DNA of 64,000 nt. Source: Planctomycetota bacterium. GTDB taxonomy: Bacteria; Planctomycetota; MHYJ01; WSZJ01. The stretch spans positions 64,001 through 128,000 of the forward strand of contig JBBTCT010000022.1 of assembly GCA_038060895.1 (NCBI GenBank). Reading direction: 5' to 3'. The notes under the pieces are model-generated. The model was not told the DNA's origin. It saw only the letters and a list, made by a program, of their open reading frames with translations, and did not search any database. The translations under genes and the position numbers were made by a program. Positions 24,613-57,575 of the stretch are shown here, one piece after another. Numbering within the stretch: position 1 is the stretch's first letter; each line of letters starts with the position of its first letter.

Positions 24613-24679
24613 TGCCGGATGTGCCGTTGCGCTGCCCGTCACTTGCGCCTCCGTTCTGAAAGGAACGAAACTCTCGCTT

Positions 24680-30756: not shown

Positions 30757-30797
30757 GGGCGTGATTTTATCCTCGGGGGAACGGAGGCGATAGGTGA

Positions 30798-30810
30798 TTA
30801 ATGTGCTTAA
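30798..30810. promoter_or_regulatory. Operator-like palindrome copy 3 (TTAATGTGCTTAA), followed by an extra TTAATG half-site
   Basis: About 40 bp upstream of the iorA start; AT-rich patch in GC-rich DNA. Confidence 0.65.
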
Positions 30811-30823
30811 TTAATGTCTCGTG

Positions 30824-32044: not shown

Positions 32045-32046
32045 GG

Positions 32047-32385
32047 CTACCACCCCATCGCGGCCCGCGCCGATGGCGAGAGGAGTTCATGCGACCACGG
32101 GGGCTCCCAGACCAGCGACACCGTGCAGGAGCGGACGCCGGGGACCCCCATCTCTACCGCCCGTTGTGCGCCGCTCACCATGGCCGGCCCGACGGGGCAA
32201 CCCATGCTGGTGAGCGTCATCTTGATCTCCACGTCCTTGTCCAGAACAGTGACCTCGTAGACGAGCCCGAGTTCGACGATGTCCAGGCCGAGCTCAGGGT
32301 CGAGGATGCCGTGAAGAGCCTCGATGACCTTCTTCATCGTGGGGACATCGTCCCGGCCGGGAATGGAGTGGTCGATTTGTCTCAT
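32047..32385 (-). CDS. DUF59 / SufT-like metal-sulfur cluster assembly factor (start may be 32337)
   Basis: ILDPELGLDIVELGLVY, MTLTSMGCP, LVWEPPW. Confidence 0.9.
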   Translation of the reverse strand: MRQIDHSIPGRDDVPTMKKVIEALHGILDPELGLDIVELGLVYEVTVLDKDVEIKMTLTSMGCPVGPAMVSGAQRAVEMGVPGVRSCTVSLVWEPPWSHELLSPSARAAMGW

Positions 32386-32671
32386 GATGGAGAAGTTTCA
32401 CACAAGCCGTGTGCCGCGAAATGCGCAGGGGGCGAGGTAGCGCGCAGCGGATTTTTCCCCCGCGCAGCGTGGATTCACACAAATCAGGGGGTTGGGCACA
32501 GTGAATCTGGTCCAGCGCTGTTGTGACTGCAGCTGCGGACGGCTACGAACTACATCATCGCCGAACCCTATGCGTCATTCGTTTTTTCCGATGTTGGAAT
32601 CCGAAATTGCGCTGAACCCACCACTTCTGATCCTCGGATTATGGCTTGCCCTATTCCGGCTATTGTATTAG

Positions 32672-32684
32672 TTAATGACATTTA
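32672..32684. promoter_or_regulatory. Operator-like palindrome copy 4 (TTAATGACATTTA)
   Basis: 1 mismatch to TTAATGnCATTAA; about 70 bp upstream of the Hzs-like/Rnf-like operon. Confidence 0.55.
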
Positions 32685-32756
32685 CTAGTATTCCGACGGC
32701 CAGATTAGGCCGCGGAAAATGACCCCTGGGATCTGCCGCCGTTCAGGAAGGAATCC

Positions 32757-35687
32757 ATGAACCGTGATCGCCTGTTCGTTGTCTTCGCGATCCTCTCTCT
32801 CGGTGTCGGCATCACCGTCTCCCTGGCGCGAGCCGGAAGAGCGGCCGATTCCAGCGTGCTTCCCACCGCGAATTCCATCGCCGACTCCTGGAAACGGCGC
32901 TCGCTTCGCCCCGTCCCGAACCCCGATCCGAACGCGAAACCGCAGCCTCACCGCTGCCGTCCGTACCGCGTCGCCGCTTCGGCGGACGGCGAGCGAGCCT
33001 GGGTCACGCTCTCCGGAAAAGAGATCTGGCCCGGCTCGGAGGTCGCTGTCCTCGATGTCCCCGGGCGGCGCGAGGTCGGCCGCGTCGCCGTCGGTTCCTA
33101 CCCCTACGCCATCCGGATGCACCCCGCCGGCAAGTGGGTCGTCGTCACCAACCGTTACTCCAACTTCCTCTCCGTCATCGACGCCGTCACGAACAAGGTT
33201 ACTTCGGAGATTCCGGTCCCGTTCTATTGCGAAGAGCTTGAATTCTCCCCCGACGGGCGCCTCGCCTGCCTCTCGAATTTCTGGAACAACCAGGTCCTGG
33301 TCGTCGACCTGCAGGAAATGGACGGTTGCCTGAAGGGACGGATGCGTGAGCTGGGCTTCGACCGCGCGGCGTTCCGGGGCGAAGAGGCCGCCGGGACCAT
33401 CAGAGAGTCGGTGTGCGAGGCGTGCGGCTGGCGGGGCGAGCCGGCTTTGAAATGTGCCCGCTGCGGCGCGCCGGCGCCGCGGATCGTGGAGCGGCCGCGC
33501 GCCGTTTCGCGGCCGGGCGGCGTTTACTCCGCGCTGCGCGCCGGCTGCGGGACGGCGGGTTGCCACCTGTACGGGCTCGGCGGCTTCACGGCCGGTCCGG
33601 ACCCCGCGGAGACTTTCCGCAGCGCTGTGGCCCACGCGTTCCCTGACGCGCCCGAGGCCAGCCCGCTCCTCCGCTGCACAACCTCGCTCCGCGACGGCGG
33701 CTGGGCCGATGGCATCGACGGCCGGCACCACCCGGGCGGTGTCGCCTTCGCCGACCCCGCTCACAACCCCGACTACGCGCTCATCCGCGATTGGATCGCC
33801 TCGGGAACCGAGGGCCCCGGGATCTCCGTCGGCGACAAGCCCCGCGACATGGCCTTCAGCGCGGACGGACGCTTCCTCTTCGTCGCCAACACCGGCTCGC
33901 TCGACGTCTCCGTGATCGACCTCTCGACCCTCCGCGAGACCCGCCGCATCTTCACCCGCTCCCCCGTCAACGACATCGCGTGGGCCGGAGACCGCCTCGT
34001 TTTCGCCACCCTCGGCGTCGGTTCAGGGCACCCCAAGGCGCGCAACCCGGCGCGCGAGTCCCTCGATCGGACAGGCGCGGAGACGGAATTCTCGCTGAAG
34101 CGCGACTTCGCGACAGGGAAGCCTCTTCCGCTCGAGAACCAGGACCCCCTGGGCCCCTACGACGATGTGGACGGGACCGCGCAGGAGAAGTTCCGGGACA
34201 TCACGAACGACGTCGTGCTGCTCGACCCGTCGGTGAGCGACGTCGCGGCATACGCGGCGACGGACGCGTGGGTGAGGTACACGTCGGACACTTTCGAGGC
34301 CCTGCCGGGAGACAAGAGAGGCGACGTGCCTCCGGAGCTGATGAAGGTTGCCGGGGCGTTCCCTGAGCAGATCGCGACCGCGGCGGACCGGGTTTACGTG
34401 ACGATGTCCGGCACGTTCCAGGTGCAGGAGTGGTCGCGCGAAGGAAACCGGCTGGTCCCGGGGCGCGTGTTCGATACGGGGTTCAAGCCTTCGGGGATCG
34501 CCGCCGCGGGGCGCACCCTGGTCGTCGCCAACCACCTGCAGGAAAGCGTGACGTTCATCGACCTCGAATCCGGCGCGGCCTCCTCGCTTTCGCTGTCGCA
34601 AATCCTCGAGCCGTTCCCGGCAACGGATTTCGAGCGCGGCGAGTTCTTCGTCCAGACGTCGATCTTCTCCGTCGACCAGGACCAGAGCTGCGTCCACTGC
34701 CACTTCCGCGACACCTCCGACGGCAAGAAATGGTCCGTGAGCCAGACCATGGGCCAGAGCCGCGACGGAAATGAGCGCGCCGGCGGCAGCCGCGAGGTCC
34801 CGGATATGCGCGGGCTCTTCCATGACGTCCCCTTTTTCGTCGAGGGAACGCTCACCATGGACGAGCCGCTCACCATGATCATGGAGCAGAACCCGCTCGT
34901 GGATTTCCAGGGCAGGACGCCCGTCGGCGACTTCACGGGAATCGTGGCGACGCCCGACGAAGAGAAGAAGTACTCGAAGTCGGCGGACGCGATCGTGGTG
35001 GCGACGGGGAAGTGGTCGTCGCCGGATGTGAAGCTGGCAGATCTAATGAAGCGCCGGGAGATCCACTTTGCGAGGATCTCGGAGAAGTACTGGGGGAGCG
35101 CGTATGGTCTTCGCGACTGCCAGAAGTTCGTGGGGGCGTATCAGGGGGAAGAGCCGAGGCTGCTGGCGAACCCGGAGGCCTCCGAAGATCCGATGGTCGT
35201 TCAGGGGAAGGCGATCTTCGAGGACGCACGGGTCGGGTGCGCCCAGTGCCACCCCGCGCCGGCGTTCACGGACAAGAAGCACCCGAACAACATGAACCGG
35301 TCTTTCCCGCCGCTTGTGACGCCGGCGCCGCGGGACAACGTGCACACGCTGGTGAGCGCGGACCGCCTCGACGCGATCAACGGGTTCGTGCGGGCCTGGG
35401 ACGCGGAGGACAAGGGGCGCGTCGAAGAGCGTGAAGGGTTCTTCGTGGCGCCGTCCTTGCGCGGCCTCTGGGCGCGCCCGCCGCGGCTGCTGCACCACGG
35501 CCGGGCGGTCAGCCTGCGGGAAGTGGTTTGCACGCCCGGCCACGCCGCCCTCAAGCCGCTTCCCTACGGCCGCCACGAACAGGGGCTCAACGAACGCGAC
35601 GGCGTGCCGGACACGCACGGCGTGACGTCGCACCTCATGGTCTGGGAGATCGAATGCCTGGTTCGCTACCTGCGCTCCATCGAATAG
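32757..35687 (+). CDS. Exported YVTN/YncE beta-propeller protein with c-type hemes and C-terminal diheme CCP/MauG-like domain (HzsB+HzsC-like architecture)
   Basis: N-terminal hydrophobic helix; repeats VGSYPYAI..HP.G, VGDKPRDMAFSADG..LFVANTGS; CEAC/CARC insert; CGTAGCH, CVHCH, CAQCH; VPDMRGL and APSLRGLW...LHHGRA.SL.EV. Confidence 0.8.
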   Translation: MNRDRLFVVFAILSLGVGITVSLARAGRAADSSVLPTANSIADSWKRRSLRPVPNPDPNAKPQPHRCRPYRVAASADGERAWVTLSGKEIWPGSEVAVLDVPGRREVGRVAVGSYPYAIRMHPAGKWVVVTNRYSNFLSVIDAVTNKVTSEIPVPFYCEELEFSPDGRLACLSNFWNNQVLVVDLQEMDGCLKGRMRELGFDRAAFRGEEAAGTIRESVCEACGWRGEPALKCARCGAPAPRIVERPRAVSRPGGVYSALRAGCGTAGCHLYGLGGFTAGPDPAETFRSAVAHAFPDAPEASPLLRCTTSLRDGGWADGIDGRHHPGGVAFADPAHNPDYALIRDWIASGTEGPGISVGDKPRDMAFSADGRFLFVANTGSLDVSVIDLSTLRETRRIFTRSPVNDIAWAGDRLVFATLGVGSGHPKARNPARESLDRTGAETEFSLKRDFATGKPLPLENQDPLGPYDDVDGTAQEKFRDITNDVVLLDPSVSDVAAYAATDAWVRYTSDTFEALPGDKRGDVPPELMKVAGAFPEQIATAADRVYVTMSGTFQVQEWSREGNRLVPGRVFDTGFKPSGIAAAGRTLVVANHLQESVTFIDLESGAASSLSLSQILEPFPATDFERGEFFVQTSIFSVDQDQSCVHCHFRDTSDGKKWSVSQTMGQSRDGNERAGGSREVPDMRGLFHDVPFFVEGTLTMDEPLTMIMEQNPLVDFQGRTPVGDFTGIVATPDEEKKYSKSADAIVVATGKWSSPDVKLADLMKRREIHFARISEKYWGSAYGLRDCQKFVGAYQGEEPRLLANPEASEDPMVVQGKAIFEDARVGCAQCHPAPAFTDKKHPNNMNRSFPPLVTPAPRDNVHTLVSADRLDAINGFVRAWDAEDKGRVEEREGFFVAPSLRGLWARPPRLLHHGRAVSLREVVCTPGHAALKPLPYGRHEQGLNERDGVPDTHGVTSHLMVWEIECLVRYLRSIE

Positions 35688-36724
35688 CCCTCGCCACCGC
35701 CGCCGCGTTCGCGCTGGCCGGCCTCGGCCTGTGGGCGCGTCGCGACGCGTTGCCCGCCGCCGCCCCGTCGTCCGCCGCTTCCGGCGGCACCGTCGTCCGC
35801 GCGACGCGGCCGCTCATGGGAAGCGTCTTTGAAATCGCGGTCTGGGCGCCTGCGGGGAAAGAGCCGGAGGCGGCTGAGGCGGCGCGGGCGGGGCTGGACC
35901 TGGTTGCGGCGCTCGAGGAGAAGATCAGCGAGTGGAAACCGTCGAGCGAGATTTCCGCCGTGAACGCGGCGGCGGGGGGCGAGCCTGTGAAGGTCGGGCC
36001 CGAGACGCGCGAGCTCGTCGGCGCGATGGTCGAGTGGTCGCGGCGGACGGGTGGAGCGTTCGACGTCACGGGCGGGCCTCTGTTCCGGCGGTGGGAGAAG
36101 GCGCGCAAGGAGAAGGACCTTCCGTCGGGCGCGGAGGTCGACGCGCTTCGGGCCCTCGTCGGATGGGAGAAGATCACGCTGGGCGCCGGAGCGGTCCGCC
36201 TCGCGAAGCCTGGAATGGCGATCGGTACGGGAGCGATCGGCAAGGGCTGGGCCGCCGACAAGGCGGGGGCGATGCTCGAGGAGCGCGGATTCCCCGACTA
36301 CATCGTGGACGCGGGAGGCGACCTGCGCGTCGGTGGCTCGCGCGGCGGCGAGCCGTGGACGGTCGCCGTGAAAGAGCCGCGGCGCGAGGGCTTTCTCGCG
36401 ACGATCGCCGCCGCGCCCGGCGGCATCGCGACATCCGGCGATTACGAGCGGTTCTGGCTCGTGGACGGCGTGCGCTACTCCCACATCCTCGACCTCCGAA
36501 CCGGCTGGCCGGCGCGCGGCCTCGCAAGCGTCACCATCATCGCGCGGGACGGCACTTCGGCCGACGCCCTTGCCACGGCCGTATTCGCGATGGGGCCGGA
36601 GAAGGGGCTCGAGTTTGCGAATGGTCTCAAGGGGGTGGAAGCGATGCTGGTGCGCGACGACGGAGGGGAGATCTTCACGCGCGGCCTTCGGCGGAAAGGC
36701 GACCGGCTGGAGGTGATCCGGTGA
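35654..36724 (+). CDS. apbE: ApbE FAD:protein FMN transferase
   Basis: LMGS, SEISAVN, GAFDVT, GAIGKGWAAD, DAGGD, ATSGDYER, YSHILD, ADALATA; N-terminal membrane anchor. Confidence 0.92.
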   Translation: MPGSLPALHRIALATAAAFALAGLGLWARRDALPAAAPSSAASGGTVVRATRPLMGSVFEIAVWAPAGKEPEAAEAARAGLDLVAALEEKISEWKPSSEISAVNAAAGGEPVKVGPETRELVGAMVEWSRRTGGAFDVTGGPLFRRWEKARKEKDLPSGAEVDALRALVGWEKITLGAGAVRLAKPGMAIGTGAIGKGWAADKAGAMLEERGFPDYIVDAGGDLRVGGSRGGEPWTVAVKEPRREGFLATIAAAPGGIATSGDYERFWLVDGVRYSHILDLRTGWPARGLASVTIIARDGTSADALATAVFAMGPEKGLEFANGLKGVEAMLVRDDGGEIFTRGLRRKGDRLEVIR

Positions 36725-39700
36725 ACGGCGCGCAGGTGCGGGGGGCGATGGTGCTGGCGGCGGCTTCCGCGGCCGCGGCCATCATAGGATGGAAGGCGTT
36801 CGCGATCCGGGAACGACCTGCGCCGGCGCGGCAGGCCGGCGATTCCTTCGCCGTCTTCTGTCGCGAAGTCGTCCCGGTGCTGGACCGCCGCTGCGGCGGC
36901 TGTCACGGTGTTCCCGGCGACGTTTACGATGCCATCGCCGCCGAGCCGCTGAACCGCACGCTCCTGCGCTGGCCCGTCGACGAATCCGGCCGCATCGCGA
37001 CGGCCGGCCAGCGCGTCGAAGCGTTCCGCCGACTCACGCAGACCTCCGCGGGCGGAGGGAAGCAGTTCGCGCCGCTCGACCGCCGCGGGCCAGCCCTCGC
37101 AAGCCAGATTCTCCGGGCGCCGCTCGCTGAATCGCTCGGCGGCTACGTCCACGCCGAGGTGTTCGCCTCCGTCGCCGACCCGGACTTCGTCGCGCTGGCG
37201 GCGTGGGCCAGCCTGGAGATCTCCGCGAGTCCCGAGCCCGCCGCGACGCTCTCGCCCGGCGCCGAGACCTTCTTCGCCGAAAGGGTCGTCCCCATCCTCG
37301 AGCGCAAGACCTGCTTCGGCTCCAACTGCCACGGAAAGCTGGCCTTCAACGACCTCAAGCTCGACCCCGGCATCCCCGCCCTCCGGGAACGCTTCACCCC
37401 CGCTCTCCACCGCGCCAACCGCCGCGCGATGCTCGGCGAGGTCACCCGCCTGGTAAACCTGTCCGGCGACGTCGAGCAGTCGAAGCAGCTCAAGAAGAGC
37501 ATTCCCGTCGAGCAGGGCGGGATCGTGCACAAGGGCGGGAACAACTTCCTCGAGAAAGGCGACCCGGACTACGCCGTGGTGAAGGAATGGCTGGAGCGGG
37601 AACGGGCCGAAGCGCGGAAGGCGACCGGTGCAGCGCTTGGAGACCTGCGCGGGATCGTGTTCGTGCGCCGGCCGCGGGCAACGCCGGAGCGGTACTTCGA
37701 GCCGCTCGTTTGGCTGCCGGGAGCGGACGTGATCCTGCTTCGGGACGGCCGCGAGACGAACCTCACGGCGGCTCTTCACCCGTCCGCCCCCGCGGACATC
37801 CGTGCGGCGGAGGTCAGCTACGACGCGCGGAGGATCTCGTTCGCGATGCGCAGGAGCGAGGAAGAGCCGTTCAACGTCTGGGAGATCGAGCTCGAATCCG
37901 GCGCGGCGCGGCAGATCACGTTCTCGACGGACCCTGCGGTTCATTTCGTCGATCCGGTCTACGTCCCCGACCCCGAGGACGCCGACGGCCTGCGGCTCGA
38001 TCTCGCGGACCTCGTCGTGCTCTCGAACTTCTCGGGCGAATTCTGCGAAGTGAGCCCCGACGGGGTCCTCGGCGAGGCCGAAGGCGGGACGGCGGACGCC
38101 ATCGAGGACGCTGAGCTGCGCGAGAAGGCAGGAACGTTCGACGGACGGCGCCTGCGAGTCCTTCGCGGTGCAAACACCGGCGAAGCGCGGACCATCTCCC
38201 GCCAGGAGCCAGGCCGGCTCCAGCTGGACCGGCCGTTCCCGTCGCCCTGCGACTCCACGACCCACTACGTGATCGACGCGCCGGTAAGAGTGGCGCCGAA
38301 GTTCGATCTGTACCGCATGAAACTGGCGGCCCCGGGCGGCGAGCGCGCGGCATTCCAGGCGACGCTGCGGCGGATGACCTGGTCGCCGTCGCAGGCGCGG
38401 CGGCCATCGCTGCGGTCGAGCGGGGAAGTGATGGCGACGTTCCTGCGCGCCGGCTGGCAGGAAGGGCGACCGTTCTTCAACGGCGCGATCTTCCGCACGC
38501 ACATCGACGGCTCGAATTTTCACACTCACGGCGGCAACCGCTCCGGCCTGCCGATCCACGCAGACGGGCGCGAGGCCGCGGACGGGCTGGAGGTCCGGAT
38601 CGGGCGCGACGCGGACTCGTGGTGGGGCGGCGTGCCGATCCTTGTTGACCACCAGTTCGGCCCTCACATCGAGGACCGCAACCCCCTCGACGACCTCGAC
38701 CACCCGTGGCGCAATGGCCCCCCGAAGTCCGCGATGACGCGCTTCGCGTCCGCCTGGATCCCGCTCGACGAAACAGCCTCATGCCGCGGGTTGTCCCCGG
38801 GAGGCGCGTGGCACGACCTCTTCCCCATGCCCGACGGCTCGATCCTCGCGTCGTTCGCGCCGGGGCCCGTCGACCTCGACGACCCGTCGGCGGCTCCGGA
38901 CTTCGACATTGTGCGGCTCGTGCCCGACCCGGCGTTTCAGTCCGCGGACGGATTCGCGGGCGGAAAATTCCGGCGCGAAACGCTCGCCGGCGGGCCTTCC
39001 GCCGAGCTGTGGCCGCGCCCCGTCGCGCCGCACCTCAAGGAACCCCTGTCGAAAACCATCAAGATCGACGAGGACCTCTTCGGCCCCGCACCCCGCGACC
39101 GCGGCCTCGCCCGCTACCCCGCAGGCGCTGCATCCGTGCTCCAGGTGTTCGATCTGCCGCTCCTGGACGCGTTCTTCACCCAGTCCACGCCGGTCGGTGT
39201 CCGCCACATCGCGTCCGATGTCTGCCCCTCCTGCGGCGACGCGACCCCCGACATCGACCAGGTCCATCTCGCCCGCATCGTCGGCCTCCAGGCGCGCCCT
39301 GACCCCGCCGCGCAGCCCCGTCGCTTCCTCATCGCCGAAGTTCCCCTCGCCGAAGACGGCTCCATCCAGGCCGCCATCCCCGCCGGCATCGCGTTCGACA
39401 TCGAGTCGGTCAACGCGCGCGGCATGGCGCTGCGCTCCCCGAACCGCTGGCTCTACACACTCCCCGGCGAACGCCACACCCTCTCCATCCCGCGCCCGCT
39501 CTTCGCCCAGACCTGCGGCGGCTGCCACGGCGGCCTCACCGGCGCGCCCGCCGACATCCTCCGCCGCCCCGACATCATCACCTCGGCATCGCGGACACAG
39601 GCGATCTGGGATGTCGAGAAGCGCCGCAAGCTCCTGCCCTCCAACTGGGACGGCGGGCGCGCGCCGGCGCCGGTCGAAGTGAGCTTCGAGAAGAGCGTCC

Positions 39701-39978
39701 GCCCGATCCTCGAGCGCCGCTGCCTGGAGTGCCACGAGGGGAGCGGAGCGGTGTCGGGAGTGAATCTTGCGGGCGAAGCGGCCTACGACACCCTTTTGCG
39801 CTTTATAGATCTCGACGACCGCCGCGCGATCGTCTCGCGACTCGCCGAGCGGCTCGAGGGACGCGAACTGCACGCCCCGGGTGTAGCGCCCGCGGCACCA
39901 CACCCGGACGGCGCACCGCTTCCCGACGAAGATCTCCGCGCTATTTACCGCTGGATCGACCTGGGGGCGGAGCGATGA
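36721..39978 (+). CDS. Hydrazine synthase alpha-related (HzsA-like) multi-heme beta-propeller protein
   Basis: TM anchor; CGGCH, CFGSNCH; TolB-like VSYDARRISFAM; HZS-alpha middle-domain pattern VPLAEDGSIQAAIPAG..FDI..NARGMAL...RW...PGE...CGGCH; C-terminal CLECH..WID.GA. Confidence 0.8.
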   Translation: MNGAQVRGAMVLAAASAAAAIIGWKAFAIRERPAPARQAGDSFAVFCREVVPVLDRRCGGCHGVPGDVYDAIAAEPLNRTLLRWPVDESGRIATAGQRVEAFRRLTQTSAGGGKQFAPLDRRGPALASQILRAPLAESLGGYVHAEVFASVADPDFVALAAWASLEISASPEPAATLSPGAETFFAERVVPILERKTCFGSNCHGKLAFNDLKLDPGIPALRERFTPALHRANRRAMLGEVTRLVNLSGDVEQSKQLKKSIPVEQGGIVHKGGNNFLEKGDPDYAVVKEWLERERAEARKATGAALGDLRGIVFVRRPRATPERYFEPLVWLPGADVILLRDGRETNLTAALHPSAPADIRAAEVSYDARRISFAMRRSEEEPFNVWEIELESGAARQITFSTDPAVHFVDPVYVPDPEDADGLRLDLADLVVLSNFSGEFCEVSPDGVLGEAEGGTADAIEDAELREKAGTFDGRRLRVLRGANTGEARTISRQEPGRLQLDRPFPSPCDSTTHYVIDAPVRVAPKFDLYRMKLAAPGGERAAFQATLRRMTWSPSQARRPSLRSSGEVMATFLRAGWQEGRPFFNGAIFRTHIDGSNFHTHGGNRSGLPIHADGREAADGLEVRIGRDADSWWGGVPILVDHQFGPHIEDRNPLDDLDHPWRNGPPKSAMTRFASAWIPLDETASCRGLSPGGAWHDLFPMPDGSILASFAPGPVDLDDPSAAPDFDIVRLVPDPAFQSADGFAGGKFRRETLAGGPSAELWPRPVAPHLKEPLSKTIKIDEDLFGPAPRDRGLARYPAGAASVLQVFDLPLLDAFFTQSTPVGVRHIASDVCPSCGDATPDIDQVHLARIVGLQARPDPAAQPRRFLIAEVPLAEDGSIQAAIPAGIAFDIESVNARGMALRSPNRWLYTLPGERHTLSIPRPLFAQTCGGCHGGLTGAPADILRRPDIITSASRTQAIWDVEKRRKLLPSNWDGGRAPAPVEVSFEKSVRPILERRCLECHEGSGAVSGVNLAGEAAYDTLLRFIDLDDRRAIVSRLAERLEGRELHAPGVAPAAPHPDGAPLPDEDLRAIYRWIDLGAER

Positions 39979-40424
39979 AGGGCGCCTCGATCCTCGGCAT
40001 TCTCCTGCTTGTCGTGGCGCTCTCGGCGGCGGCGTGGCTGGCGCATGAAGGGGTGTCGGGAGTTTCCTGCGCGAAGGCGGGTGACTGCGCGAGCTGCCAC
40101 AAAGGGTCGCCGCCGACGACGCATACACCGGCTTTCGTCGAAGAAGGGCACGGACCGGCGGCGCTTCAGAATCAGGCGTCCTGCCTCGGCTGTCACAAGC
40201 GCGAGTCGTGCGACGAGTGCCACGCAAAGGAGCGGCCGAAGTGGCACACGAGCGGGTTTCGGGCGCCGGGGAGGGGGCGGGAGGAGAGGGAGGAGCACAT
40301 CCGGATTTCGGCGGCGCACCGGGAGTCGTGCGGCGAGTGCCATGCGCGGCGGTTCGCGTCGCAGTGCGCGGAGTGCCACCGGCCGGACGAGGCGTGGCTG
40401 AAGACGGCCCAGGAGGCGCGATGA
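39975..40424 (+). CDS. Small membrane-anchored/exported pentaheme cytochrome c
   Basis: Hydrophobic N-terminus; CASCH, CLGCH, CDECH, CGECH, CAECH plus additional His residues. Confidence 0.88.
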   Translation: MKGASILGILLLVVALSAAAWLAHEGVSGVSCAKAGDCASCHKGSPPTTHTPAFVEEGHGPAALQNQASCLGCHKRESCDECHAKERPKWHTSGFRAPGRGREEREEHIRISAAHRESCGECHARRFASQCAECHRPDEAWLKTAQEAR

Positions 40425-41542
40425 AGGTCCCGGCGCTGAAGCAGACGGTGCGCGAGGCGATCCGGGCGCTGGAGCCGGCGCCGGCAGTCCGCGTCCGGAC
40501 GGCCGGGCTGCTCGCGCGAGTGGTGCCTGGAGACCGCGTGGAAGCGGGGCAGGTGATCGCGGAGTCGCCGGAAGGGGAGGGGTTCGCGCGGCGTCGGCAC
40601 TCGCCGTACGACGGCGTCGTGGTTTCGGCGAAGCGCCCGGGAGAAATCCGGATCGAGGGCCGGCCGCGCGTCCTTCCTTCGGCGCCGCACCGGGAGTTGG
40701 CGTCGCTCTCGCCCGAAGCGGTGGTCGCCGCCGTGCGGGACGCCGGCATCGAGGGAATGGGAGGCGGGATGTTCCCGACGTATGTGAAGCTCGCGCCCGG
40801 CCGGCCGGTCGAGTGCGTGATCGTGAATGCCTGCGAGTCGGAGCCGTACCTCGCGTGCGACGCGCGCGTGATGGCCGAATTCCGCGACGACGTCGAGTGC
40901 GGGATGCGCCTCGCCATGCGCGCCGTCGGCGCCGCGCGCGGCGTGATCGTCCACGACGACGGCGGCTACCCGGGCGGCTACGAACGCTTCCTCGTCCGCC
41001 AGGTCCTCGGCCGCGATGTCCCACCGGGCGGCCGCCCGGCAGACGCGGGCGCGATCGTGATCAACGTGCAGACGGCCCGCGCGATCCACCACGCCGTCTG
41101 CCTGGAGCGGCCTCTGCTGGACCGCGTCGTGACCGTCGATGGCGGCGCCGTGGCGCGCCCCGGGAATTTCACGGTGTCGCTCGGCACCGAGTTCGGCCAC
41201 ATCCTCGCCTGCGCTTCGGCCGACCTCGCGCTGGCGGCGGTCCTTCTCGCAGGCGGTCCGATGATGGGCGTCGAGTCGCTGCCCGACGCCGTCGTCGAGC
41301 CGGGGACCGGAGGCGTCCTCGCGCTCACCCGCGAGGAGATCCGCCGCCCCACCGACAACCCGTGCATCCGCTGCGGCGACTGCCTCGAAGCGTGCCCCGT
41401 GGGCCTGAGCGCGCGTCACCTCATCCTTCGCCCCACGGCCGCCCTCTCGCGCTGCATGGACTGCGGCATGTGCCAGTACGTCTGCCCCGCCGACCGCTCC
41501 CTCGTCGCCCTTCTCCGCCGGGCCAAGGCGACATTGCGATGA
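40421..41542 (+). CDS. rnfC: RnfC/RsxC-like subunit (FMN/NAD-binding, SLBB, 2x[4Fe-4S])
   Basis: HSPYDG.V, AGIEGMGGGMFPTYVKL, IVNACESEPYL..D, YPGG.E, NVQT, GGPMMG, CIRCGDCLEACP, CMDCGMCQYVCP. Confidence 0.88.
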   Translation: MKVPALKQTVREAIRALEPAPAVRVRTAGLLARVVPGDRVEAGQVIAESPEGEGFARRRHSPYDGVVVSAKRPGEIRIEGRPRVLPSAPHRELASLSPEAVVAAVRDAGIEGMGGGMFPTYVKLAPGRPVECVIVNACESEPYLACDARVMAEFRDDVECGMRLAMRAVGAARGVIVHDDGGYPGGYERFLVRQVLGRDVPPGGRPADAGAIVINVQTARAIHHAVCLERPLLDRVVTVDGGAVARPGNFTVSLGTEFGHILACASADLALAAVLLAGGPMMGVESLPDAVVEPGTGGVLALTREEIRRPTDNPCIRCGDCLEACPVGLSARHLILRPTAALSRCMDCGMCQYVCPADRSLVALLRRAKATLR

Positions 41543-41997
41543 GCGAAGCGCCCCCGGCGCGCGCCCGCGTGGCGACCGCCGTCCTTCTCGCCGCCGCCGC
41601 GGCCGTCGCGTTCGCGCTGCGCCCTGCTGACCCGGACCGCGCGCTCGCCGAGCGGCTCATCGGCCCCGCCGCGCGCGTCCCTGGCGGCGGCCCGCCCGCA
41701 TTTCACAACGGCCGCAAAGCGGTCCTCTTCTTCGAACGCCCCGGCGTCCAGGGGCTCATCCGCGGCGCCGTCGTCCTCGAGGGAGATGCCGTCGCCGACG
41801 TCCTTGTCCTCACCAGCACCGAGGGCCACGACGGCCGCGTTCTCCAGTCCCCCGGGTTCCTCGCTTCGTTCCGCGGCCGGCCCGCACGCCCCCCCGTCGT
41901 CGTGGACTCCGTCACCGGCGCGAGCGTCTCCTCCCGCCTCCTCATCGACGCCGTCAACGACCGCCTCCGCTGGTGGTCCACCGAGGCCCCCCGATGA
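41539..41997 (+). CDS. FMN-binding protein (RnfG-like)
   Basis: TM anchor; G..G.I...V, F...F.G, VDSVTGASVSS flavinylation motif. Confidence 0.8.
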   Translation: MSEAPPARARVATAVLLAAAAAVAFALRPADPDRALAERLIGPAARVPGGGPPAFHNGRKAVLFFERPGVQGLIRGAVVLEGDAVADVLVLTSTEGHDGRVLQSPGFLASFRGRPARPPVVVDSVTGASVSSRLLIDAVNDRLRWWSTEAPR

Positions 41998-42392
41998 AAC
42001 TCCGCTTCCCCGCCGGGTGGATCCTTGCCGGGCTCGTGCCTGCGCTCTGGGAAGCGCCGCCGGTCGCGTCGCTGGCCTGGGCCGCCGCGCTCGGGCTTGG
42101 CGCGGCGCTCGCCGCCGGCCGGCCGTCGCGGTGGGTTGCGATCGCGTGGATCGCCGCGGCCGCCGTCCCTGGCGTCCCGCTCGCTCCCATCGCCGCCGCG
42201 GGCGCTCTTCTCGCCGGCGGTCGCGCCCACCTCGGCGCGGCCGCTCTCGGCGCTGCCCTCGGCGCCGCCGCGCAGTTCGCTCCCTTCGTCGTCCCTGTCC
42301 ATGCGGGCGGAGCCCTTCTGCTCGCGGCGGCCGCCGCCCTCGCCCTTCTGCCGTCAAACCCCGAACCGCCCGAAGAGGAGTCCGCCCGATGA
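41994..42392 (+). CDS. Small hydrophobic membrane protein, possibly degenerate RnfE
   Basis: 132 aa, almost all hydrophobic, ATGA-coupled on both sides, in the RnfE position; no Cys. Confidence 0.55.
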   Translation: MKLRFPAGWILAGLVPALWEAPPVASLAWAAALGLGAALAAGRPSRWVAIAWIAAAAVPGVPLAPIAAAGALLAGGRAHLGAAALGAALGAAAQFAPFVVPVHAGGALLLAAAAALALLPSNPEPPEEESAR

Positions 42393-42772
42393 AGCCCTGG
42401 GACGCGGTCTTCCTCGCCGCCGCCGCCGGTCTTTTCCTCCAGCGCCCCCGCGCCTGGTGGCTGGCCGCAGCCGCTCCACTCCTCGCTCTCGCTGCGCAGC
42501 CGCTCGGCACGTTCGCCGGCCCGGCCGCCGCGCTGGCCGCCGTCCTCGTCGCGCCGCGCTTCGCCCCTGCCGCCCTCCTCCTCGCCGCCGGGCACTACAC
42601 CGGCTGGGCCGACGCGGCGCGCGCTTCGGCCGTCTGGCTCGCCGTGAGCGCGCTCCTGGCCTCGATGGAAGAGCGTTTTGAAGAAGTTTCGCCGCGCCTC
42701 CGCGGCGCGCCGATCCGGCTGTTCGCGACCGGCGTGCTCTACTACGCGCTTCTCCCGGTGGCCTACCTGTGA
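42389..42772 (+). CDS. Degenerate RnfA-like membrane protein
   Basis: C-terminus LLASMEERFEEVSPRLRGAPIRLFATGVL resembles RnfA (IRERL..VP..FRG.PI.LITAGL); 127 aa; no Cys. Confidence 0.6.
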   Translation: MKPWDAVFLAAAAGLFLQRPRAWWLAAAAPLLALAAQPLGTFAGPAAALAAVLVAPRFAPAALLLAAGHYTGWADAARASAVWLAVSALLASMEERFEEVSPRLRGAPIRLFATGVLYYALLPVAYL

Positions 42773-43683
42773 GCCCCGGCCCCCTGGTCCACAGCGGTCG
42801 CACGACCCGTGTCTTGATGGCGCAGGTGCTGATCGCACTCGCGCCCGCCCTGATCGCTGCCGTCGTGCGCGGCGGCGTAACGGCGGCCGCCTCGCTCGCC
42901 GCCGCCCTGTCCGTCGCGTGGGGAGTCCAGTGCTTCTTCCTCAGGCGCGCCGCGTTCCACGAAAGCGCTCTCGTCACCGCCGCCATTTTCGCGCTCACTC
43001 TCCCCGCGACGGCGCCGTGGTGGCTCTCCGCGCTCGGCGCCGCGATCGCGGTCTCCCTCGGGAAACACCTCGGCGGCGGCGCTGGCAACTCCCTCTTCAA
43101 TTCGGCCGCCCTCGCGCGCGCCGTCCTCATGGGCCTCGCTCCCGGCCTCCTTTTCGCCCCGCGCTGGCCCGCCGCCGACGGAATCACCGCCGCAAGCCCG
43201 CTCGCAAAAGAAGTCGATTCCGTGGCAACGCCGCTCCTCGACCTCCTCCTTGGCCAACACCCCGGCTCCCTCGCCGAAGCCGCCCCCCTGGCCGTCCTCG
43301 CCGGCGGCCTCTTCCTCGTCGCCGTCCGCGCCATCGAGGGCCGCGTTCCCCTCGTCTACTTCGCGACCGTCTCTCTCTTCGCCCTCTTCCTCCCCGCAGG
43401 CGACCGCATCGCCGGCCACGCGCCGTGGCTCGCCCACAATGCCCTCCTTCACATCGCTTCCGGCGGCGTGCTCCTCACCGGATTCTTCATGCTCACCGAC
43501 CCCGTCACCGCGCCCTTCACGCCGCGCGGCCGCATGCTCTTCGCCGCCCTCGCCGGCGCCGCGACCATGCTCGCGCGCTTCTACACGCCCTACCCCGACG
43601 CCGCCGTCCTCGCCGTCCTCCTCGCCAACGCATGCGTTCCCGCCATCGACGCGCGGACGATTCCGCGGGAAGCGCTTTCCTGA
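42769..43683 (+). CDS. rnfD: RnfD/NqrB family membrane subunit
   Basis: SALVTAAIFALTLP, KHLGGGAG..LFN.A, DGITAASPL, PGSLAE, FFMLTDPVTAP, YPD..LAVLLAN. Confidence 0.9.
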   Translation: MSPGPLVHSGRTTRVLMAQVLIALAPALIAAVVRGGVTAAASLAAALSVAWGVQCFFLRRAAFHESALVTAAIFALTLPATAPWWLSALGAAIAVSLGKHLGGGAGNSLFNSAALARAVLMGLAPGLLFAPRWPAADGITAASPLAKEVDSVATPLLDLLLGQHPGSLAEAAPLAVLAGGLFLVAVRAIEGRVPLVYFATVSLFALFLPAGDRIAGHAPWLAHNALLHIASGGVLLTGFFMLTDPVTAPFTPRGRMLFAALAGAATMLARFYTPYPDAAVLAVLLANACVPAIDARTIPREALS

Positions 43684-45688: not shown

Positions 45689-45717
45689 CGCCACCTCTTG
45701 GCTCCGGATTGCCGGGC

Positions 45718-46971: not shown

Positions 46972-46982
46972 GGGGATCTCCG

Positions 46983-48629: not shown

Positions 48630-48788
48630 CGTAGGGGTCTCCGATGCGGCTCCCGGGCCGCGCGGGACGGCCTCGAGGGGACGCTGTCCCCTTGCCGGAC
48701 CCGGCGCGCCGGTCTCCGCAGAATTCAACACGCGCGAAGGGGCCCGGTTGCCGGGAATCCCTCCCGCCGGCCGAATCGGCGGAACTAC

Positions 48789-57439: not shown

Positions 57440-57575
57440 GATGCGGTTACTTTAGAAGGTGGGGGAAGAAAGGACACAACGAAACCAAAAACGAAAAACA
57501 AAAAAGGAAAAACGAAAAGACTCCTTGATCCGCCGGCCGTACTTCCTGAGTGCGAATGAAAGGCTGCAGGGGTCG

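What the first reader, a model, noticed from the sequence alone, without database searches (positions are those of the whole stretch)
32757..43683. Candidate new system: hydrazine-synthase-like periplasmic heme enzyme wired to a reduced Rnf module
Seen: nine genes with overlapping stop/start codons encode a propeller + diheme CCP/MauG-like protein, ApbE, a protein with the HZS-alpha middle-domain pattern and 4 heme motifs, a pentaheme cytochrome, and RnfC-, G-, E/A- and D-like subunits. Known: anammox hydrazine synthase has alpha (propeller, middle domain, hemes), beta (propeller) and gamma (diheme CCP-like) subunits, with beta and gamma fused in some anammox bacteria; ApbE flavinylates RnfG and RnfD. 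Inference: both halves of an HZS-like architecture come with their own electron wire: NAD(H) - RnfC - RnfD - RnfG(FMN) - pentaheme cytochrome - periplasmic enzyme. I do not know of a described system with this composition. The substrate is unknown, and nothing here shows anammox.
Basis: partly seen in the sequence, partly recalled or inferred. Interest (0 to 1): 0.92.

Follow-up and report, generated by a model that had tools for sequence, protein, structure and literature searches.

The report
Hydrazine-synthase-like heme enzyme on a cut-down Rnf
A groundwater planctomycete carries a nine-gene cassette, shared by bacteria of several phyla, that joins distant relatives of all three anammox hydrazine-synthase subunits to a stripped-down NADH-linked Rnf module, a pairing of unknown chemistry that I could not find described in the papers searched.

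Summary
Nine translationally coupled + strand genes (32757-43683) encode a beta-gamma-like propeller/diheme protein, ApbE, a four-heme alpha-like protein, a pentaheme cytochrome, RnfC, an RnfG-like FMN protein, two small membrane proteins and RnfD. Family profiles and AlphaFold2 models of the two large proteins find hydrazine synthase (5C2V) as their best heme-protein match, but HZS-specific residues and NCBIfam cut-offs are not met, so this is not anammox. The two "RnfE/A-like" genes match no Pfam or NCBIfam family and have no cysteines. One shows weak similarity to the RnfA/E C-terminus and is predicted to bind RnfD. No RnfA/E/B gene was found elsewhere in the genome (86.5% complete).

Among 74 related loci, 27 share this architecture (RnfC 20 of 21 assessable, RnfG 18 of 18, RnfD 14 of 15). 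A second architecture has RnfD fused to a NuoF-like NADH domain. A third uses the ApbE substrate DUF3570.

Best reading: a one-way NADH - RnfC - RnfD - RnfG - pentaheme wire feeding a periplasmic two-subunit heme reductase of unknown substrate. HZS-like homologs outside anammox are published. I found no paper with the Rnf/ApbE link. Verdict: new variant of a known kind, high interest.

The parts
32386..32756 (.). Divergent intergenic region upstream of the operon, with a GGAAGGA ribosome-binding site 5 nt before the ATG at 32757
   Evidence: sequence; upstream genes lie on the - strand. No sigma-70 consensus site was found.
32757..35687 (+). G1, 976 aa: N-terminal helix anchor, seven-bladed-type YVTN/YncE propeller with a ~150-aa insertion carrying a CX4CH heme motif, and a C-terminal diheme domain (C645xxCH, C828xxCH). 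Homolog of a fused HZS beta-gamma subunit.
35654..36724 (+). G2, 356 aa: ApbE FAD:protein FMN transferase with an N-terminal hydrophobic anchor
   Evidence: PF02424, 272.9 bits; found in 15 of 19 assessable type-1 loci; fused to the alpha-like protein in P0051
36721..39978 (+). G3, 1085 aa: N-terminal helix anchor, ~270-aa helical domain with two heme motifs (C58xxCH, C198x4CH), then propeller, HZS_alpha middle domain and two C-terminal c-heme sites (C932xxCH, C1001xxCH). Homolog of HZS alpha.
39975..40424 (+). G4, 149 aa: pentaheme c-type cytochrome (5 CXXCH) with an N-terminal signal or anchor
   Evidence: weak c7/c3 matches; 5 CXXCH in 24 of 26 homologs; found in 25 of 26 assessable type-1 loci and also in type-2 loci
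40421..41542 (+). G5, 373 aa: RnfC (Complex1_51K FMN/NADH domain, SLBB, two CxxCxxCxxxCP 4Fe-4S motifs). Cytoplasmic.
   Evidence: TIGR01945, 260 bits, above the 245.95 cut-off; the only RnfC in the genome
41539..41997 (+). G6, 152 aa: short RnfG-like protein with an N-terminal TM helix and an FMN_bind domain carrying a D-x-x-[ST]-G-A-[ST] flavinylation motif
   Evidence: FMN_bind, 22.8 bits, cut-off 22; G127, A128 invariant; S/T at the modified position in 14 of 14
41994..42392 (+). G7 (m1), 132 aa: cysteine-free small membrane protein matching no Pfam or NCBIfam family
   Evidence: found in 15 of 18 assessable type-1 loci; contacts G8 in the complex model
42389..42772 (+). G8 (m2), 127 aa: cysteine-free small membrane protein. 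Its C-terminal hairpin weakly resembles the C-terminus of RnfA/E. Predicted to bind RnfD.
   Evidence: (ipSAE 0.75 against a best control of 0.02); found in 16 of 17 assessable loci
42769..43683 (+). G9, 304 aa: RnfD/NqrB-family membrane subunit with a conserved D-G-x-[ST]-x-A-[ST] flavinylation-type motif
   Evidence: PF03116, 248 bits; TIGR01946, 188 bits, below the 207 cut-off; the only copy in the genome; its close relatives occur only in genomes that also have G3

Best explanation
The operon encodes one self-contained respiratory or detoxifying unit with two halves.

Periplasmic enzyme. It is built from a beta-gamma-like subunit (G1, 3 heme motifs) and an alpha-like subunit (G3, 4 heme motifs). 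Both are distant homologs of hydrazine synthase and both are membrane-anchored by N-terminal helices.

One-way transmembrane electron wire. RnfC oxidises NADH (FMN, two 4Fe-4S clusters). Electrons pass through RnfD (riboflavin, then a covalent FMN on the periplasmic side) to the covalent FMN of the short RnfG-like protein. In place of the missing RnfA/E/B branch, they then pass to a pentaheme cytochrome (G4) that reduces the enzyme. ApbE installs the two covalent FMNs. Two small cofactor-less membrane proteins (G7, G8) sit on RnfD, and G8 is perhaps a relic of RnfA/E.

Proposed chemistry. The enzyme would carry out a low-potential, multi-electron reduction of a small diffusible oxidant at the gamma-like heme, possibly followed by a second step at the alpha-like heme. 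My best guess for the substrate class is an N-oxide such as NO, hydroxylamine or nitrite (about 0.3). Peroxide comes next. It is not hydrazine synthesis.

Shown: gene content, homology, conserved linkage, motif conservation, and absence of the other Rnf genes from the assembly.
Inferred: the order of the wire, its direction, the cytochrome's role as the link, and the substrate.
For: Homology of both large proteins to HZS: profiles against the PDB; models and Foldseek.

Linkage. Of the 74 related loci, 27 have the window's architecture. Among loci long enough to judge, the counts are G1 13 of 13, ApbE 15 of 19, cyt5 25 of 26, RnfC 20 of 21, RnfG 18 of 18, G7 15 of 18, G8 16 of 17 and RnfD 14 of 15.

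Independent support for an NADH input through RnfD. All 7 type-2 loci that reach far enough have the order alpha-like, beta-gamma-like, ApbE, cyt5, RnfD. In 5 of them RnfD is fused to a NuoF-like Complex1_51K + SLBB + NADH_4Fe-4S module, and in 1 to a Fer2/Fer4 module.

Further points:
- P0051 is a natural ApbE::alpha-like fusion.
- Flavinylation-type motifs are conserved in the RnfG-like and RnfD-like proteins. The motif definition and ApbE's role come from PMC8238504 and PMC12174285.
- The Rnf cofactor order RnfC - RnfD riboflavin - RnfD FMN - RnfG FMN is established (PMC12174285).
- The own genome (86.5% complete) has no PF02508 RnfA/E (19 of 40 other Planctomycetota do), no PF04060 RnfB-type domain, one RnfD and one RnfC.
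- The RnfD of this type (>=51% identity) occurs in 3 of 401 Planctomycetota genomes, all three of which carry G3. The next best full-length match is 39%.
- Similarity to related genomes is confined to 32895-43674, so the nine genes move as a unit.
- G8 is predicted to bind RnfD/G7: median score 0.75 against a best control of 0.02, a mark reached by 58 of 80 solved complexes and 2 of 110 mismatched pairs. Runs agree in >=90% of contacts and partner pLDDT is >=80. My own alignments were used, so these counts hold only roughly.
- HZS's own putative donor is a low-potential multiheme cytochrome (-400 and -190 mV; PMC12607021), which fits an NADH/flavin/multiheme supply.
Against: There are no biochemical data.
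- The direction of electron flow is not determined by any result here.
- RnfG-to-cytochrome and G1-to-G3 contacts were not tested.
- The window's own HZS_alpha (23.4 bits) and CCP_MauG (17.9 bits) matches are below Pfam cut-offs, and rnfD TIGR01946 is below its cut-off.
- Exceptions to the linkage: L024 has no G7, G8 or RnfD within the 10-kb flanks. L007 has G8-RnfD displaced about 3 kb upstream of G1. ApbE is missing from 4 of 19 assessable type-1 loci (L011, L014, L018, L023).
- The gamma-like domain of the G1 model has low-confidence stretches (651-699, 834-864).
- The genome is 86.5% complete, so absence of RnfA/E/B is 'not found'.
- Features that tie HZS to N-N chemistry are lacking. The residue at His936+4 is Thr, not Tyr. 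There is no Cys where type-3 proteins have an NFCC motif. The inter-heme aromatic residue is Phe, not Trp or His.
- Type-1 alpha-like proteins are among the more distant relatives of HZS alpha: 22 bits to NF052339, against 55-297 bits for 9 of 10 other superfamily members tested.
Confidence: 0.6

Rival explanations
1. Same wire and enzyme, but the chemistry is peroxide or oxygen-species detoxification. The diheme CCP-like domain of G1 would reduce H2O2 with NADH-derived electrons, giving an anaerobe a periplasmic NADH peroxidase.
For: The C-terminal domain of G1 belongs to the bCCP/MauG/HZS-gamma fold group (weak CCP_MauG 17.9 bits and MbnH 20 bits; PMC12607021, states that gamma is homologous to bCCP and MauG). 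Type-3 loci carry AhpC/TSA-type thioredoxin-fold genes next to ApbE. The neighbouring genes suggest a fermentative life-style (2-oxoacid:ferredoxin oxidoreductase, ADP-forming acyl-CoA synthetase).
Against: A peroxidase does not need a 1085-aa four-heme alpha-like partner, which is conserved in all 74 loci by construction and linked to G1 in all 13 assessable type-1 loci. The inter-heme Trp of CCP/MauG is Phe in type 1. Among solved structures the domain hits only HZS gamma, not CCPs. The Trx-fold genes fit the published DsbD/DUF3570 electron route rather than peroxiredoxin function.
Confidence: 0.13
2. The wire runs in reverse. The periplasmic enzyme oxidises a very low-potential substrate, and electrons flow through cytochrome, RnfG, RnfD and RnfC to reduce NAD+, possibly helped by ion influx through RnfD.
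For: Rnf is reversible (PMC12174285, abstract seen; passages). RnfC/NuoF-type modules work in both directions in other enzymes (established knowledge). Nothing fixes the direction.
Against: Few periplasmic heme-enzyme substrates lie below -320 mV. HZS, the only characterised relative, consumes electrons from a low-potential donor. The flavinylated export modules described so far are interpreted as outward, one-way routes (PMC8238504).
Confidence: 0.12
3. G1 is a MauG/MbnH-like protein-modifying enzyme that matures a cofactor or cross-link in G3 or another protein, and the Rnf-like module only supplies or removes the electrons needed for that maturation.
For: Weak MbnH-family match of G1 (TIGR04039, E 2.9e-4). 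Type-2 loci add FGE-sulfatase-domain proteins, a family of protein-modifying enzymes, including ApbE::FGE fusions.
Against: A stoichiometric maturation step would not justify a dedicated five-subunit NADH-linked wire plus a pentaheme cytochrome conserved across phyla. FGE-domain genes are absent from all 27 type-1 loci scanned except one unlinked - strand hit in L039.
Confidence: 0.04
4. There is no functional link. A decayed rnf operon merely lies next to unrelated heme-protein genes.
For: RnfA, RnfE and RnfB are missing. G7 and G8 could be read as debris.
Against: All nine frames are open and translationally coupled. The order is kept at 46-85% protein identity in 27 loci labelled from several phyla. 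G7 and G8 are conserved families. RnfD of this type occurs only with G3. Type 2 re-creates the same link by gene fusion.
Confidence: 0.02
5. It is a genuine hydrazine synthase, and the organism is an unrecognised anammox bacterium.
For: All three HZS subunit folds are present in beta-gamma then alpha order. The genome has one HAO-family multiheme ORF elsewhere.
Against: NCBIfam equivalog scores are 22, 57 and 24 bits against cut-offs of 800, 560 and 625. There is no Tyr at His+4 of the alphaI-type heme. The superfamily is widespread in non-anammox phyla, and the HZS_alpha model also matches Bacteroides thetaiotaomicron. PMC12758564 reaches the same conclusion for other clades.
Confidence: 0.01

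Closest known systems
Anammox hydrazine synthase (Kuenenia HZS alpha-beta-gamma, PDB 5C2V/5C2W)
   Same: Same three folds: alpha propeller + middle domain + two c-hemes, beta propeller, and gamma diheme CCP-like domain. Beta and gamma are fused, as in some anammox bacteria. The genes are adjacent in beta-gamma then alpha order. The electron supply is by a low-potential multiheme cytochrome.
   Different: Very distant: 13-16% identity in the Foldseek alignments, and NCBIfam scores far below cut-off. G3 has an extra ~270-aa two-heme N-terminal domain, and G1 an extra heme in a propeller insertion. There is no Tyr ligand position, no third-Cys position, and Phe at the inter-heme position. Electrons come from an Rnf-type NADH module instead of the anammox electron-transfer module (the latter is recalled, not from a call).
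HZS-like alpha / beta-gamma gene pairs of non-anammox bacteria, clades I-IV of Hagglund et al. 2025 (PMC12758564), and the hzs-like genes of PMC10732223
   Same: Co-localised alpha-like and fused beta-gamma-like genes in Planctomycetota and other phyla, with key HZS residues not conserved. My type-3 loci show the Trp and Cys features that the paper reports for clades I-III.
   Different: The main text of that paper mentions no ApbE, flavin, NADH or electron transport, and 'rnf' occurs only in its reference list. It reports FG-GAP/CRTAC1 and ABC-transporter neighbours. Here the neighbours are ApbE, a pentaheme cytochrome and RnfC/G/D. I cannot tell whether the window's type is the paper's 'clade IV', because the figures and supplements were not visible.
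Rnf complex (RnfABCDGE) and Na+-NQR
   Same: RnfC, RnfD and RnfG homologs are present with their cofactor motifs, ApbE-dependent flavinylation sites and membrane topology.
   Different: It lacks RnfA, RnfE and RnfB, that is, the whole ferredoxin branch and the intramembrane 2Fe-2S cluster. It has two new cysteine-free small subunits. RnfG is shortened to 152 aa. The output is periplasmic rather than back to the cytoplasm.
'NQR/RNF-like' one-way flavinylated exporters of Meheust et al. 2021 (PMC8238504)
   Same: The concept is the same: a partial Rnf/Nqr with ApbE that carries electrons one way from cytoplasmic NAD(P)H to an extracytosolic acceptor.
   Different: That class is defined by RnfD fused to an NqrF-type PF00175 domain and occurs mainly in Actinobacteria and CPR. 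Here RnfD is unfused and works with a separate RnfC (type 1), or is fused to a NuoF-type module (type 2). The acceptor is a multiheme cytochrome plus an HZS-like enzyme.
Methanosarcina acetivorans Rnf with the multiheme cytochrome MmcA
   Same: An Rnf-encoded multiheme c-type cytochrome takes electrons out of the Rnf flavin path to an external acceptor (PMC12174285; PMC8238504).
   Different: That complex keeps all six Rnf subunits and uses ferredoxin. The cytochrome is an added branch, not a replacement for the RnfA/E/B half.
DsbD / DUF3570 / thioredoxin-like / ApbE system (PMC8238504)
   Same: My type-3 loci place DUF3570 (found in 18 of 34), ApbE (9 of 34) and Trx-fold genes beside the alpha-like and beta-gamma-like pair. 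The same enzyme family is thus served by another ApbE-dependent route.
   Different: There are no Rnf parts and no pentaheme cytochrome. The published description gives no terminal enzyme for DUF3570.

Membership tests
Hydrazine synthase (HZS alpha, beta, gamma) | Alpha-subunit fold: propeller + HZS_alpha middle domain + two C-terminal c-type hemes | tested here: met
   Profile A1 against the PDB: 5c2v_A at E 1.5e-24, five collinear stretches. Foldseek: 5c2v_A at E 3.7e-26, TM by target 0.59. HZS_alpha scores 28.7 bits and 23.4.
Hydrazine synthase (HZS alpha, beta, gamma) | Beta propeller and gamma diheme domain present and encoded beside alpha | tested here: met
   Profile A2: 5c2v_B at 1.9e-24 and 5c2v_C at 4.6e-12. 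C-terminal domain alone: 5c2v_C at 2e-6. G1 and G3 are separated only by ApbE.
Hydrazine synthase (HZS alpha, beta, gamma) | Scores above the NCBIfam equivalog cut-offs (NF052339 800, NF052340 560, NF052341 625 bits) | tested here: not met
   22.3, 56.6 and 23.5 bits
Hydrazine synthase (HZS alpha, beta, gamma) | Heme alphaI with a Tyr proximal ligand four residues after the CxxCH histidine, that histidine binding zinc (PMC12607021) | tested here: not met
   C932-x-x-C-H936 is followed by G-G-L-T. There is no Tyr within +6, and the consensus of 26 homologs is the same.
Hydrazine synthase (HZS alpha, beta, gamma) | Third covalent Cys-heme bond at gammaI, and His at the position of the CCP/MauG Trp (PMC12758564) | tested here: inconclusive
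   In alignment A2, type-3 proteins have PWF and NFCC motifs at these places, while the window's type has PFF and no Cys. No direct residue-level alignment to HZS gamma over this stretch was obtained.
Rnf complex (RnfABCDGE) | RnfC with FMN/NADH domain and two 4Fe-4S motifs | tested here: met
   TIGR01945, 260 bits, above the 245.95 cut-off. Complex1_51K, 106 bits. Two CxxCxxCxxxCP motifs.
Rnf complex (RnfABCDGE) | RnfD and RnfG with covalent-FMN sites | tested here: met
   PF03116, 248 bits (though TIGR01946 at 188 is below its 207 cut-off). FMN_bind, 22.8 bits, above the cut-off of 22. Conserved [ST]-x-A-[ST] motifs. Flavin attachment itself is not testable here.
Rnf complex (RnfABCDGE) | RnfA/RnfE pair carrying the intramembrane 2Fe-2S cluster on conserved cysteines | tested here: not met
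   No PF02508 in the operon or in the 86.5%-complete genome, while 19 of 40 other Planctomycetota have it. G7 and G8 have no Cys. hhalign gives G8 69% over 49 columns and G7 2.4%. RnfA/E C29 and C112 are invariant.
Rnf complex (RnfABCDGE) | RnfB polyferredoxin subunit | tested here: not met
   No such gene in the operon. No PF04060 match in the genome.
NQR/RNF-like system sensu PMC8238504 | RnfD/NqrB membrane domain fused to an NqrF-type NAD-binding domain (PF00175) in an ApbE-associated cluster | tested here: not met
   G9 is a 304-aa RnfD domain only. In type 2 the fusion partner is Complex1_51K/SLBB/NADH_4Fe-4S, not PF00175.
Bacterial diheme cytochrome c peroxidase / MauG (PF03150) | Pfam gathering score, and the inter-heme Trp | tested here: not met
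   17.9 bits against a cut-off of 25.6. Phe at the aligned position in type 1. No CCP or MauG chain among the PDB sequence hits.

The most novel reading that the evidence does not exclude
The whole HZS-like superfamily outside anammox would be a set of flavin-fed periplasmic two-site heme enzymes. The window's cassette would be a horizontally mobile, NADH-powered version that performs HZS-type tandem chemistry on small nitrogen species: multi-electron reduction of NO or nitrite at the gamma-like heme, tunnel transfer, then a second bond-forming or reducing step at the alpha-like heme. That would be a previously unrecognised nitrogen-cycle reaction in groundwater bacteria and a living model of the pre-anammox ancestor. 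The RnfC-D-G-m1-m2 module would at the same time be a natural minimal half-Rnf that still couples electron export to ion movement.
Probability: 0.12. Interest if true: 0.95.

Novelty: new variant of a known kind. Interest (0 to 1): 0.75.

Why it matters
Hydrazine synthase has been treated as an enzyme almost without relatives, and the function of its recently noticed distant homologs is unknown.

A conserved, dedicated NADH-linked supply line makes these homologs experimentally approachable. The donor (NADH), the carrier (a 149-aa pentaheme cytochrome) and the enzyme pair are all named in one cassette, so candidate substrates can be screened with a defined assay.

The cassette is also a natural dissection of Rnf/Nqr. 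It keeps only the RnfC-RnfD-RnfG half, replaces RnfA/E with two cofactor-less small subunits, and sends electrons out instead of back. This bears on which half of Rnf moves ions and how the mobile RnfG domain chooses partners.

Three different ApbE-dependent routes serve one enzyme superfamily: RnfC/D/G, the RnfD::NuoF fusion, and DUF3570 with a Trx-fold protein. This gives a possible terminal enzyme to the orphan DUF3570 system and suggests a general rule for how HZS-like enzymes are fed.

Tried and rejected
- G7/G8 as RnfA/E. Tested with Pfam and NCBIfam at E<=1, the ESM Atlas (no usable feature hit, only low-TM structural rows) and hhalign. Rejected as functional RnfA/E. Only a weak C-terminal resemblance of G8 remains, and G7 and G8 are not paralogs (probability 0.5%).

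- True HZS alpha as an outgroup for a tree. Ten superfamily members were scanned against NCBIfam. Nine matched NF052339 (55-297 bits) and P0215 gave no match at E<=1e-5. None reached the 800-bit cut-off, so no rooted tree was built.

- Complex of G1 with G3.

- RnfG with the cytochrome.

- Promoter and terminator scan. 0 sigma-70 sites and 2 terminator-like sites, below the shuffle mean of 6.2. Uninformative.

- Substrate hints from neighbours.
  - The window's flanks (FeS_assembly_P, a 409-aa unknown, 2-oxoacid:ferredoxin oxidoreductase-like, xanthine-dehydrogenase-type MoCo subunit, ADP-forming acyl-CoA synthetase, DUF1501/DUF1800, Ser/Thr kinases) are not shared with the related loci L003-L005, so they say nothing about the cassette.
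  - Recurrent flank genes elsewhere are sensor kinases (8 of 26 type-1/2 loci examined) and ANTAR- or LuxR-type response regulators (4 of 26). This is compatible with a small-molecule signal but names none.

- Expression. Contigs of two metatranscriptome runs of one aquifer sample match pieces of G1, ApbE, G3, cyt5/RnfC, RnfG and RnfD. X13 had 14 contigs laid, 13 at >=99% identity. X16 had 9 laid, all at >=99%. Depth is about 1-3, the contigs cannot show strand or level, and DNA carry-over is not excluded. I treat this as no more than a weak hint.

- Habitat. Runs holding half or more of the sampled words are groundwater metagenomes that may be the source (X1, X2), plus X3 and X4 of an unlabelled study. 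Smaller shares in aquifer and sediment runs were laid only for X7, X13 and X16.

- NrfA. No match over the cut-off in the genome.

Supplements of PMC12758564 (gene-order and clade tables) and PMC8238504 (Supplementary file 1, cluster lists) could not be seen and may already list clusters of this type.

Full report
**What is there.** The window lies in a 5.4-Mb, 86.5%-complete MAG. Its closest relatives in the genome collection are titled Planctomycetia/Planctomycetota MAGs. Between - strand genes on both sides lie nine + strand ORFs, 32757-43683. Seven of the eight junctions are ATGA/GTGA four-base overlaps, and the first pair overlaps by 34 nt. A GGAAGGA ribosome-binding site precedes the first ATG.

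The Pfam and NCBIfam assignments are:
- G1, 976 aa: YVTN/YncE-type propeller plus a weak CCP_MauG match.
- G2: ApbE (273 bits).
- G3, 1085 aa: weak HZS_alpha plus cytochrome c matches.
- G4, 149 aa: five CXXCH motifs.
- G5: RnfC (TIGR01945, 260 bits, above cut-off).
- G6, 152 aa: FMN_bind at threshold.
- G7 and G8, 132 and 127 aa: no family.
- G9: RnfD (PF03116, 248 bits).

Heme motifs total twelve: three in G1 (one CX4CH in a propeller insertion plus two CXXCH), four in G3 and five in G4.

**Are the large proteins really HZS-like?** Yes, as folds and as distant homologs.
- A profile of 26 G3 homologs finds only HZS alpha among 177,635 PDB sequences (5c2v_A, E 1.5e-24). It matches in five collinear pieces covering the propeller, middle domain and C-terminal heme domain. 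The next hit has E 0.038.
- The AF2 model of G3 (pLDDT 87.6, pTM 0.86) has 5c2v_A as top Foldseek hit (E 3.7e-26, TM by target 0.59), seventeen orders of magnitude ahead of TolB.
- A profile of 30 G1 homologs hits HZS beta (1.9e-24) with its N-terminal half and HZS gamma (4.6e-12) with its C-terminal part.
- The last 377 residues of G1 alone hit only HZS gamma below E=1 (2e-6).
- The G1 model (pLDDT 78.5) has 5c2v_B as best Foldseek match.

It is not hydrazine synthase.
- NCBIfam equivalog scores are 22, 57 and 24 bits against cut-offs of 800, 560 and 625.
- The alphaI-type CxxCH is followed by G-G-L-T rather than carrying the Tyr at His+4 that ligates heme alphaI in HZS.
- In my alignment the window's type has Phe where type-3 relatives have the CCP-like Trp, and no Cys where they have an NFCC motif.
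- Other members of the superfamily score 55-297 bits to the HZS alpha model in 9 of 10 tested. The window's type is therefore among the more remote branches.
- The HZS_alpha Pfam model also matches a Bacteroides control genome.

**Is the link to the rnf-like genes real?** G3 has 79 relatives at E<=0.001 among the 8000 candidates scored. All that carry a source name are 'hypothetical protein' or 'mono/diheme cytochrome c family protein', and their MAG labels span Planctomycetota, Verrucomicrobiota, Acidobacteriota, Myxococcota, Gamma- and Deltaproteobacteria. I fetched 4 genome and 70 metagenome loci with up to 10-kb flanks. I scanned their six-frame translations with HMMs built from the window's proteins and from neighbours annotated by Pfam. 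Three architectures appear.

Type 1 (27 loci, G3 identity 46-85%) repeats the window: G1, ApbE, G3, cyt5, RnfC, RnfG, m1, m2, RnfD. Among loci long enough to judge, the counts are:

| Gene | Found / assessable |
|---|---|
| G1 | 13 / 13 |
| ApbE | 15 / 19 |
| cyt5 | 25 / 26 |
| RnfC | 20 / 21 |
| RnfG | 18 / 18 |
| m1 (G7) | 15 / 18 |
| m2 (G8) | 16 / 17 |
| RnfD | 14 / 15 |

The exceptions are:
- L024 has no m1, m2 or RnfD within the flanks.
- L007 has m2-RnfD displaced about 3 kb upstream of G1.
- L011 lacks an m1 hit.
- Four loci lack ApbE.
- L017 and L041 are cases of spacing or truncation.

Type 2 (13 loci, 32-39% identity) has G3, G1, an FGE-sulfatase-domain protein, an ApbE::FGE fusion, cyt5 and RnfD. 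RnfD was found in all 7 loci that extend far enough. In 5 of those it is fused to a NuoF-like Complex1_51K + SLBB + NADH_4Fe-4S module and followed by a Fer2_4/2x4Fe-4S protein. In one it is fused to that FeS module instead.

Type 3 (34 loci, 23-38% identity) has G3 and a G1-like gene (23 of 34). DUF3570 is present in 18 of 34, ApbE in 9 of 34, and AhpC/TSA-type Trx-fold genes in several. These type-3 counts are not corrected for contig ends. DUF3570 is an experimentally shown ApbE substrate whose terminal function is unknown (PMC8238504, passages).

Further support for the link:
- One database protein (P0051) is an ApbE::alpha-like fusion.
- Only 5 of 401 Planctomycetota genomes (own included) have a G3 match at E<=1e-20.
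- 172 of 401 have some RnfD/NqrB, but only three (own, G197, G349) have one above 50% identity. All three carry G3, and the next best full-length match is 39%.
- Nucleotide similarity to L003-L005 (79-82%) begins at 32895-32952 and ends at 43674, or at 41546 for L005, whose locus ends there. The flanks are unrelated. The nine genes thus behave as a cassette.

**What kind of Rnf is this?**
- The genome has no PF02508 (RnfA/E/NqrD/E) match, whereas 19 of 40 other sampled Planctomycetota have pairs of them.
- It has no PF04060 RnfB-type domain, one RnfD and one RnfC.
- G7 and G8 are conserved families without any cysteine. Planctomycete RnfA/E have two invariant cysteines.
- hhalign gives G8 a 69% probability match (E 4.5e-5) to the last two helices of RnfA/E, around a shared G-x-P-I motif. 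G7 gets none.
- A three-chain prediction of RnfD, G7 and G8 (G8 as partner) scored 0.75 (median of three runs) against 0.02 for the best of three controls. Contacts agreed in >=90% and partner pLDDT was >=80. That mark was reached by 58 of 80 solved complexes and 2 of 110 mismatched pairs in the tool's calibration. The counts hold only roughly here because my own alignments were used. The interface uses the C-terminal helix of G8 and RnfD residues 97-122 and 269-295.
- The RnfG-like protein keeps the D-x-x-[ST]-G-A-[ST] motif (G and A invariant in 14 sequences). RnfD keeps D-G-x-[ST]-x-A-[ST] in both type 1 and type 2.

According to the 2025 review (passages read), electrons in Rnf pass RnfC (FMN, two 4Fe-4S), RnfD riboflavin, RnfD covalent FMN on the periplasmic side and RnfG covalent FMN. 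RnfG's mobile domain then swings to the RnfA/E 2Fe-2S cluster. The subunits retained here are exactly the contiguous NADH-to-periplasm half.

**Mechanism proposed.** NADH is oxidised by RnfC. Electrons cross the membrane through RnfD to the FMN of the short RnfG-like protein. With no RnfA/E cluster to dock on, that protein hands them to the pentaheme cytochrome, which reduces the membrane-anchored G1/G3 enzyme. The N-terminal helices of G1 and G3 are modelled.

The type-2 fusion of RnfD to a NuoF-type NADH module, with the same cytochrome and the same enzyme pair, is an independent re-invention of the same path. It is the strongest argument for the wire.

The direction (outward) is inferred from two points. 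The only characterised relative consumes electrons from a low-potential multiheme donor. And few periplasmic donors lie below NAD+/NADH.

The substrate is unknown. I rank the candidates as follows:
1. A small N-oxide, because of the ancestry and the two-site architecture.
2. Peroxide.

The sensor kinases and ANTAR/LuxR response regulators beside the cassette in other genomes fit induction by a small periplasmic signal but do not identify it.

**Literature.** I read these items:
- PMC12758564: abstract, sections 7 and 8, and term searches. It describes co-localised HZS alpha and beta-gamma homologs in non-anammox bacteria (clades I-IV) and concludes that key residues are not conserved. Its main text contains no 'ApbE', 'flavin', 'NADH' or 'electron transport', and 'rnf' occurs only in a reference.
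- PMC10732223: passages. It reports hzs-like genes in Phycisphaerae and KSB1 MAGs and suggests a broader enzyme family, with no Rnf or ApbE.
- PMC8238504: passages. It defines one-way 'NQR/RNF-like' systems as RnfD::NqrF fusions and describes DUF3570.
- PMC12174285: passages. The only cytochrome-bearing Rnf it mentions is that of M. acetivorans.

Full-text searches for 'hydrazine synthase' together with 'ApbE', and together with 'RnfD', returned 0 papers each. Searches for HZS-like terms and for partial-Rnf terms listed nothing describing this combination. The library lacks most subscription journals, and the supplements were closed.

**Verdict.** Chemistry and direction are open.

It is a new variant built from known kinds: an HZS-like enzyme pair and a partial Rnf exporter. 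It has two new small subunits and a conserved flavin-to-heme junction, it is spread patchily across phyla, and DNA runs place it in groundwater metagenomes. Fragments also turn up in an aquifer RNA library, which is only a weak hint of transcription.

Noticed in passing
L040:16464-22725; also L026-L028, L030, L031, L035, L036: Type-2 relatives of the cassette carry FGE-sulfatase-domain genes, one free-standing and one fused to ApbE. They also carry RnfD fused to a NuoF-like NADH module, followed by a Fer2_4/2x4Fe-4S protein. An FGE-type modifying enzyme tied to ApbE and a heme enzyme is unexplained.
   Followed up: partly
L043, L050, L059, L065, L067-L069 and other type-3 loci: The orphan flavinylated protein DUF3570, often with ApbE and a Trx-fold gene, sits between or beside alpha-like and beta-gamma-like genes. 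This suggests the HZS-like pair as the missing terminal enzyme of the published DsbD/DUF3570 route.
   Followed up: partly
window 33400-33470 (G1 residues ~215-240): The propeller insertion of G1 holds a CxxC-x10-CxxC zinc-ribbon-like motif just upstream of the CX4CH heme motif. Its conservation was not examined.
   Followed up: no
window 43760-48731, - strand: Convergent downstream genes: an 806-aa protein with a CxxCH motif and weak PKD matches, then DUF1501 and DUF1800. A DUF1800 gene also follows the type-2 cluster in L031 (13730-15382). These families are abundant in Planctomycetota, so this may be coincidence.
   Followed up: no
window 22609-32385, - strand: Upstream divergent block: FeS_assembly_P protein, a 409-aa ORF with no Pfam match, a TPP/4Fe-4S 2-oxoacid:ferredoxin oxidoreductase-like protein, a xanthine-dehydrogenase-type molybdopterin subunit and an ADP-forming acyl-CoA synthetase. 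This looks like a fermentative aromatic or amino-acid pathway and is not shared with related loci.
   Followed up: no
G000:C24:36534-37100 (L083) and G000:C4:24014-24850 (L084): Elsewhere in the genome lie one HAO-family multiheme ORF (PF13447, 83 bits, 533-aa frame) and a second ApbE gene. Their contexts were not examined.
   Followed up: no
window 48927-51770 and 54614-57451, - strand; 52001-54000: Two ~946-aa Ser/Thr protein kinases with TPR repeats flank a stretch whose G+C drops to 0.58, against about 0.68 for the window.
   Followed up: no
L007:1093-2525 and L024: In L007 the m2-RnfD pair lies about 3 kb upstream of G1, next to a PAS histidine kinase and an ANTAR response regulator. Its close relative L024 has the kinase and regulator but no m1, m2 or RnfD within 10 kb.
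   Followed up: partly
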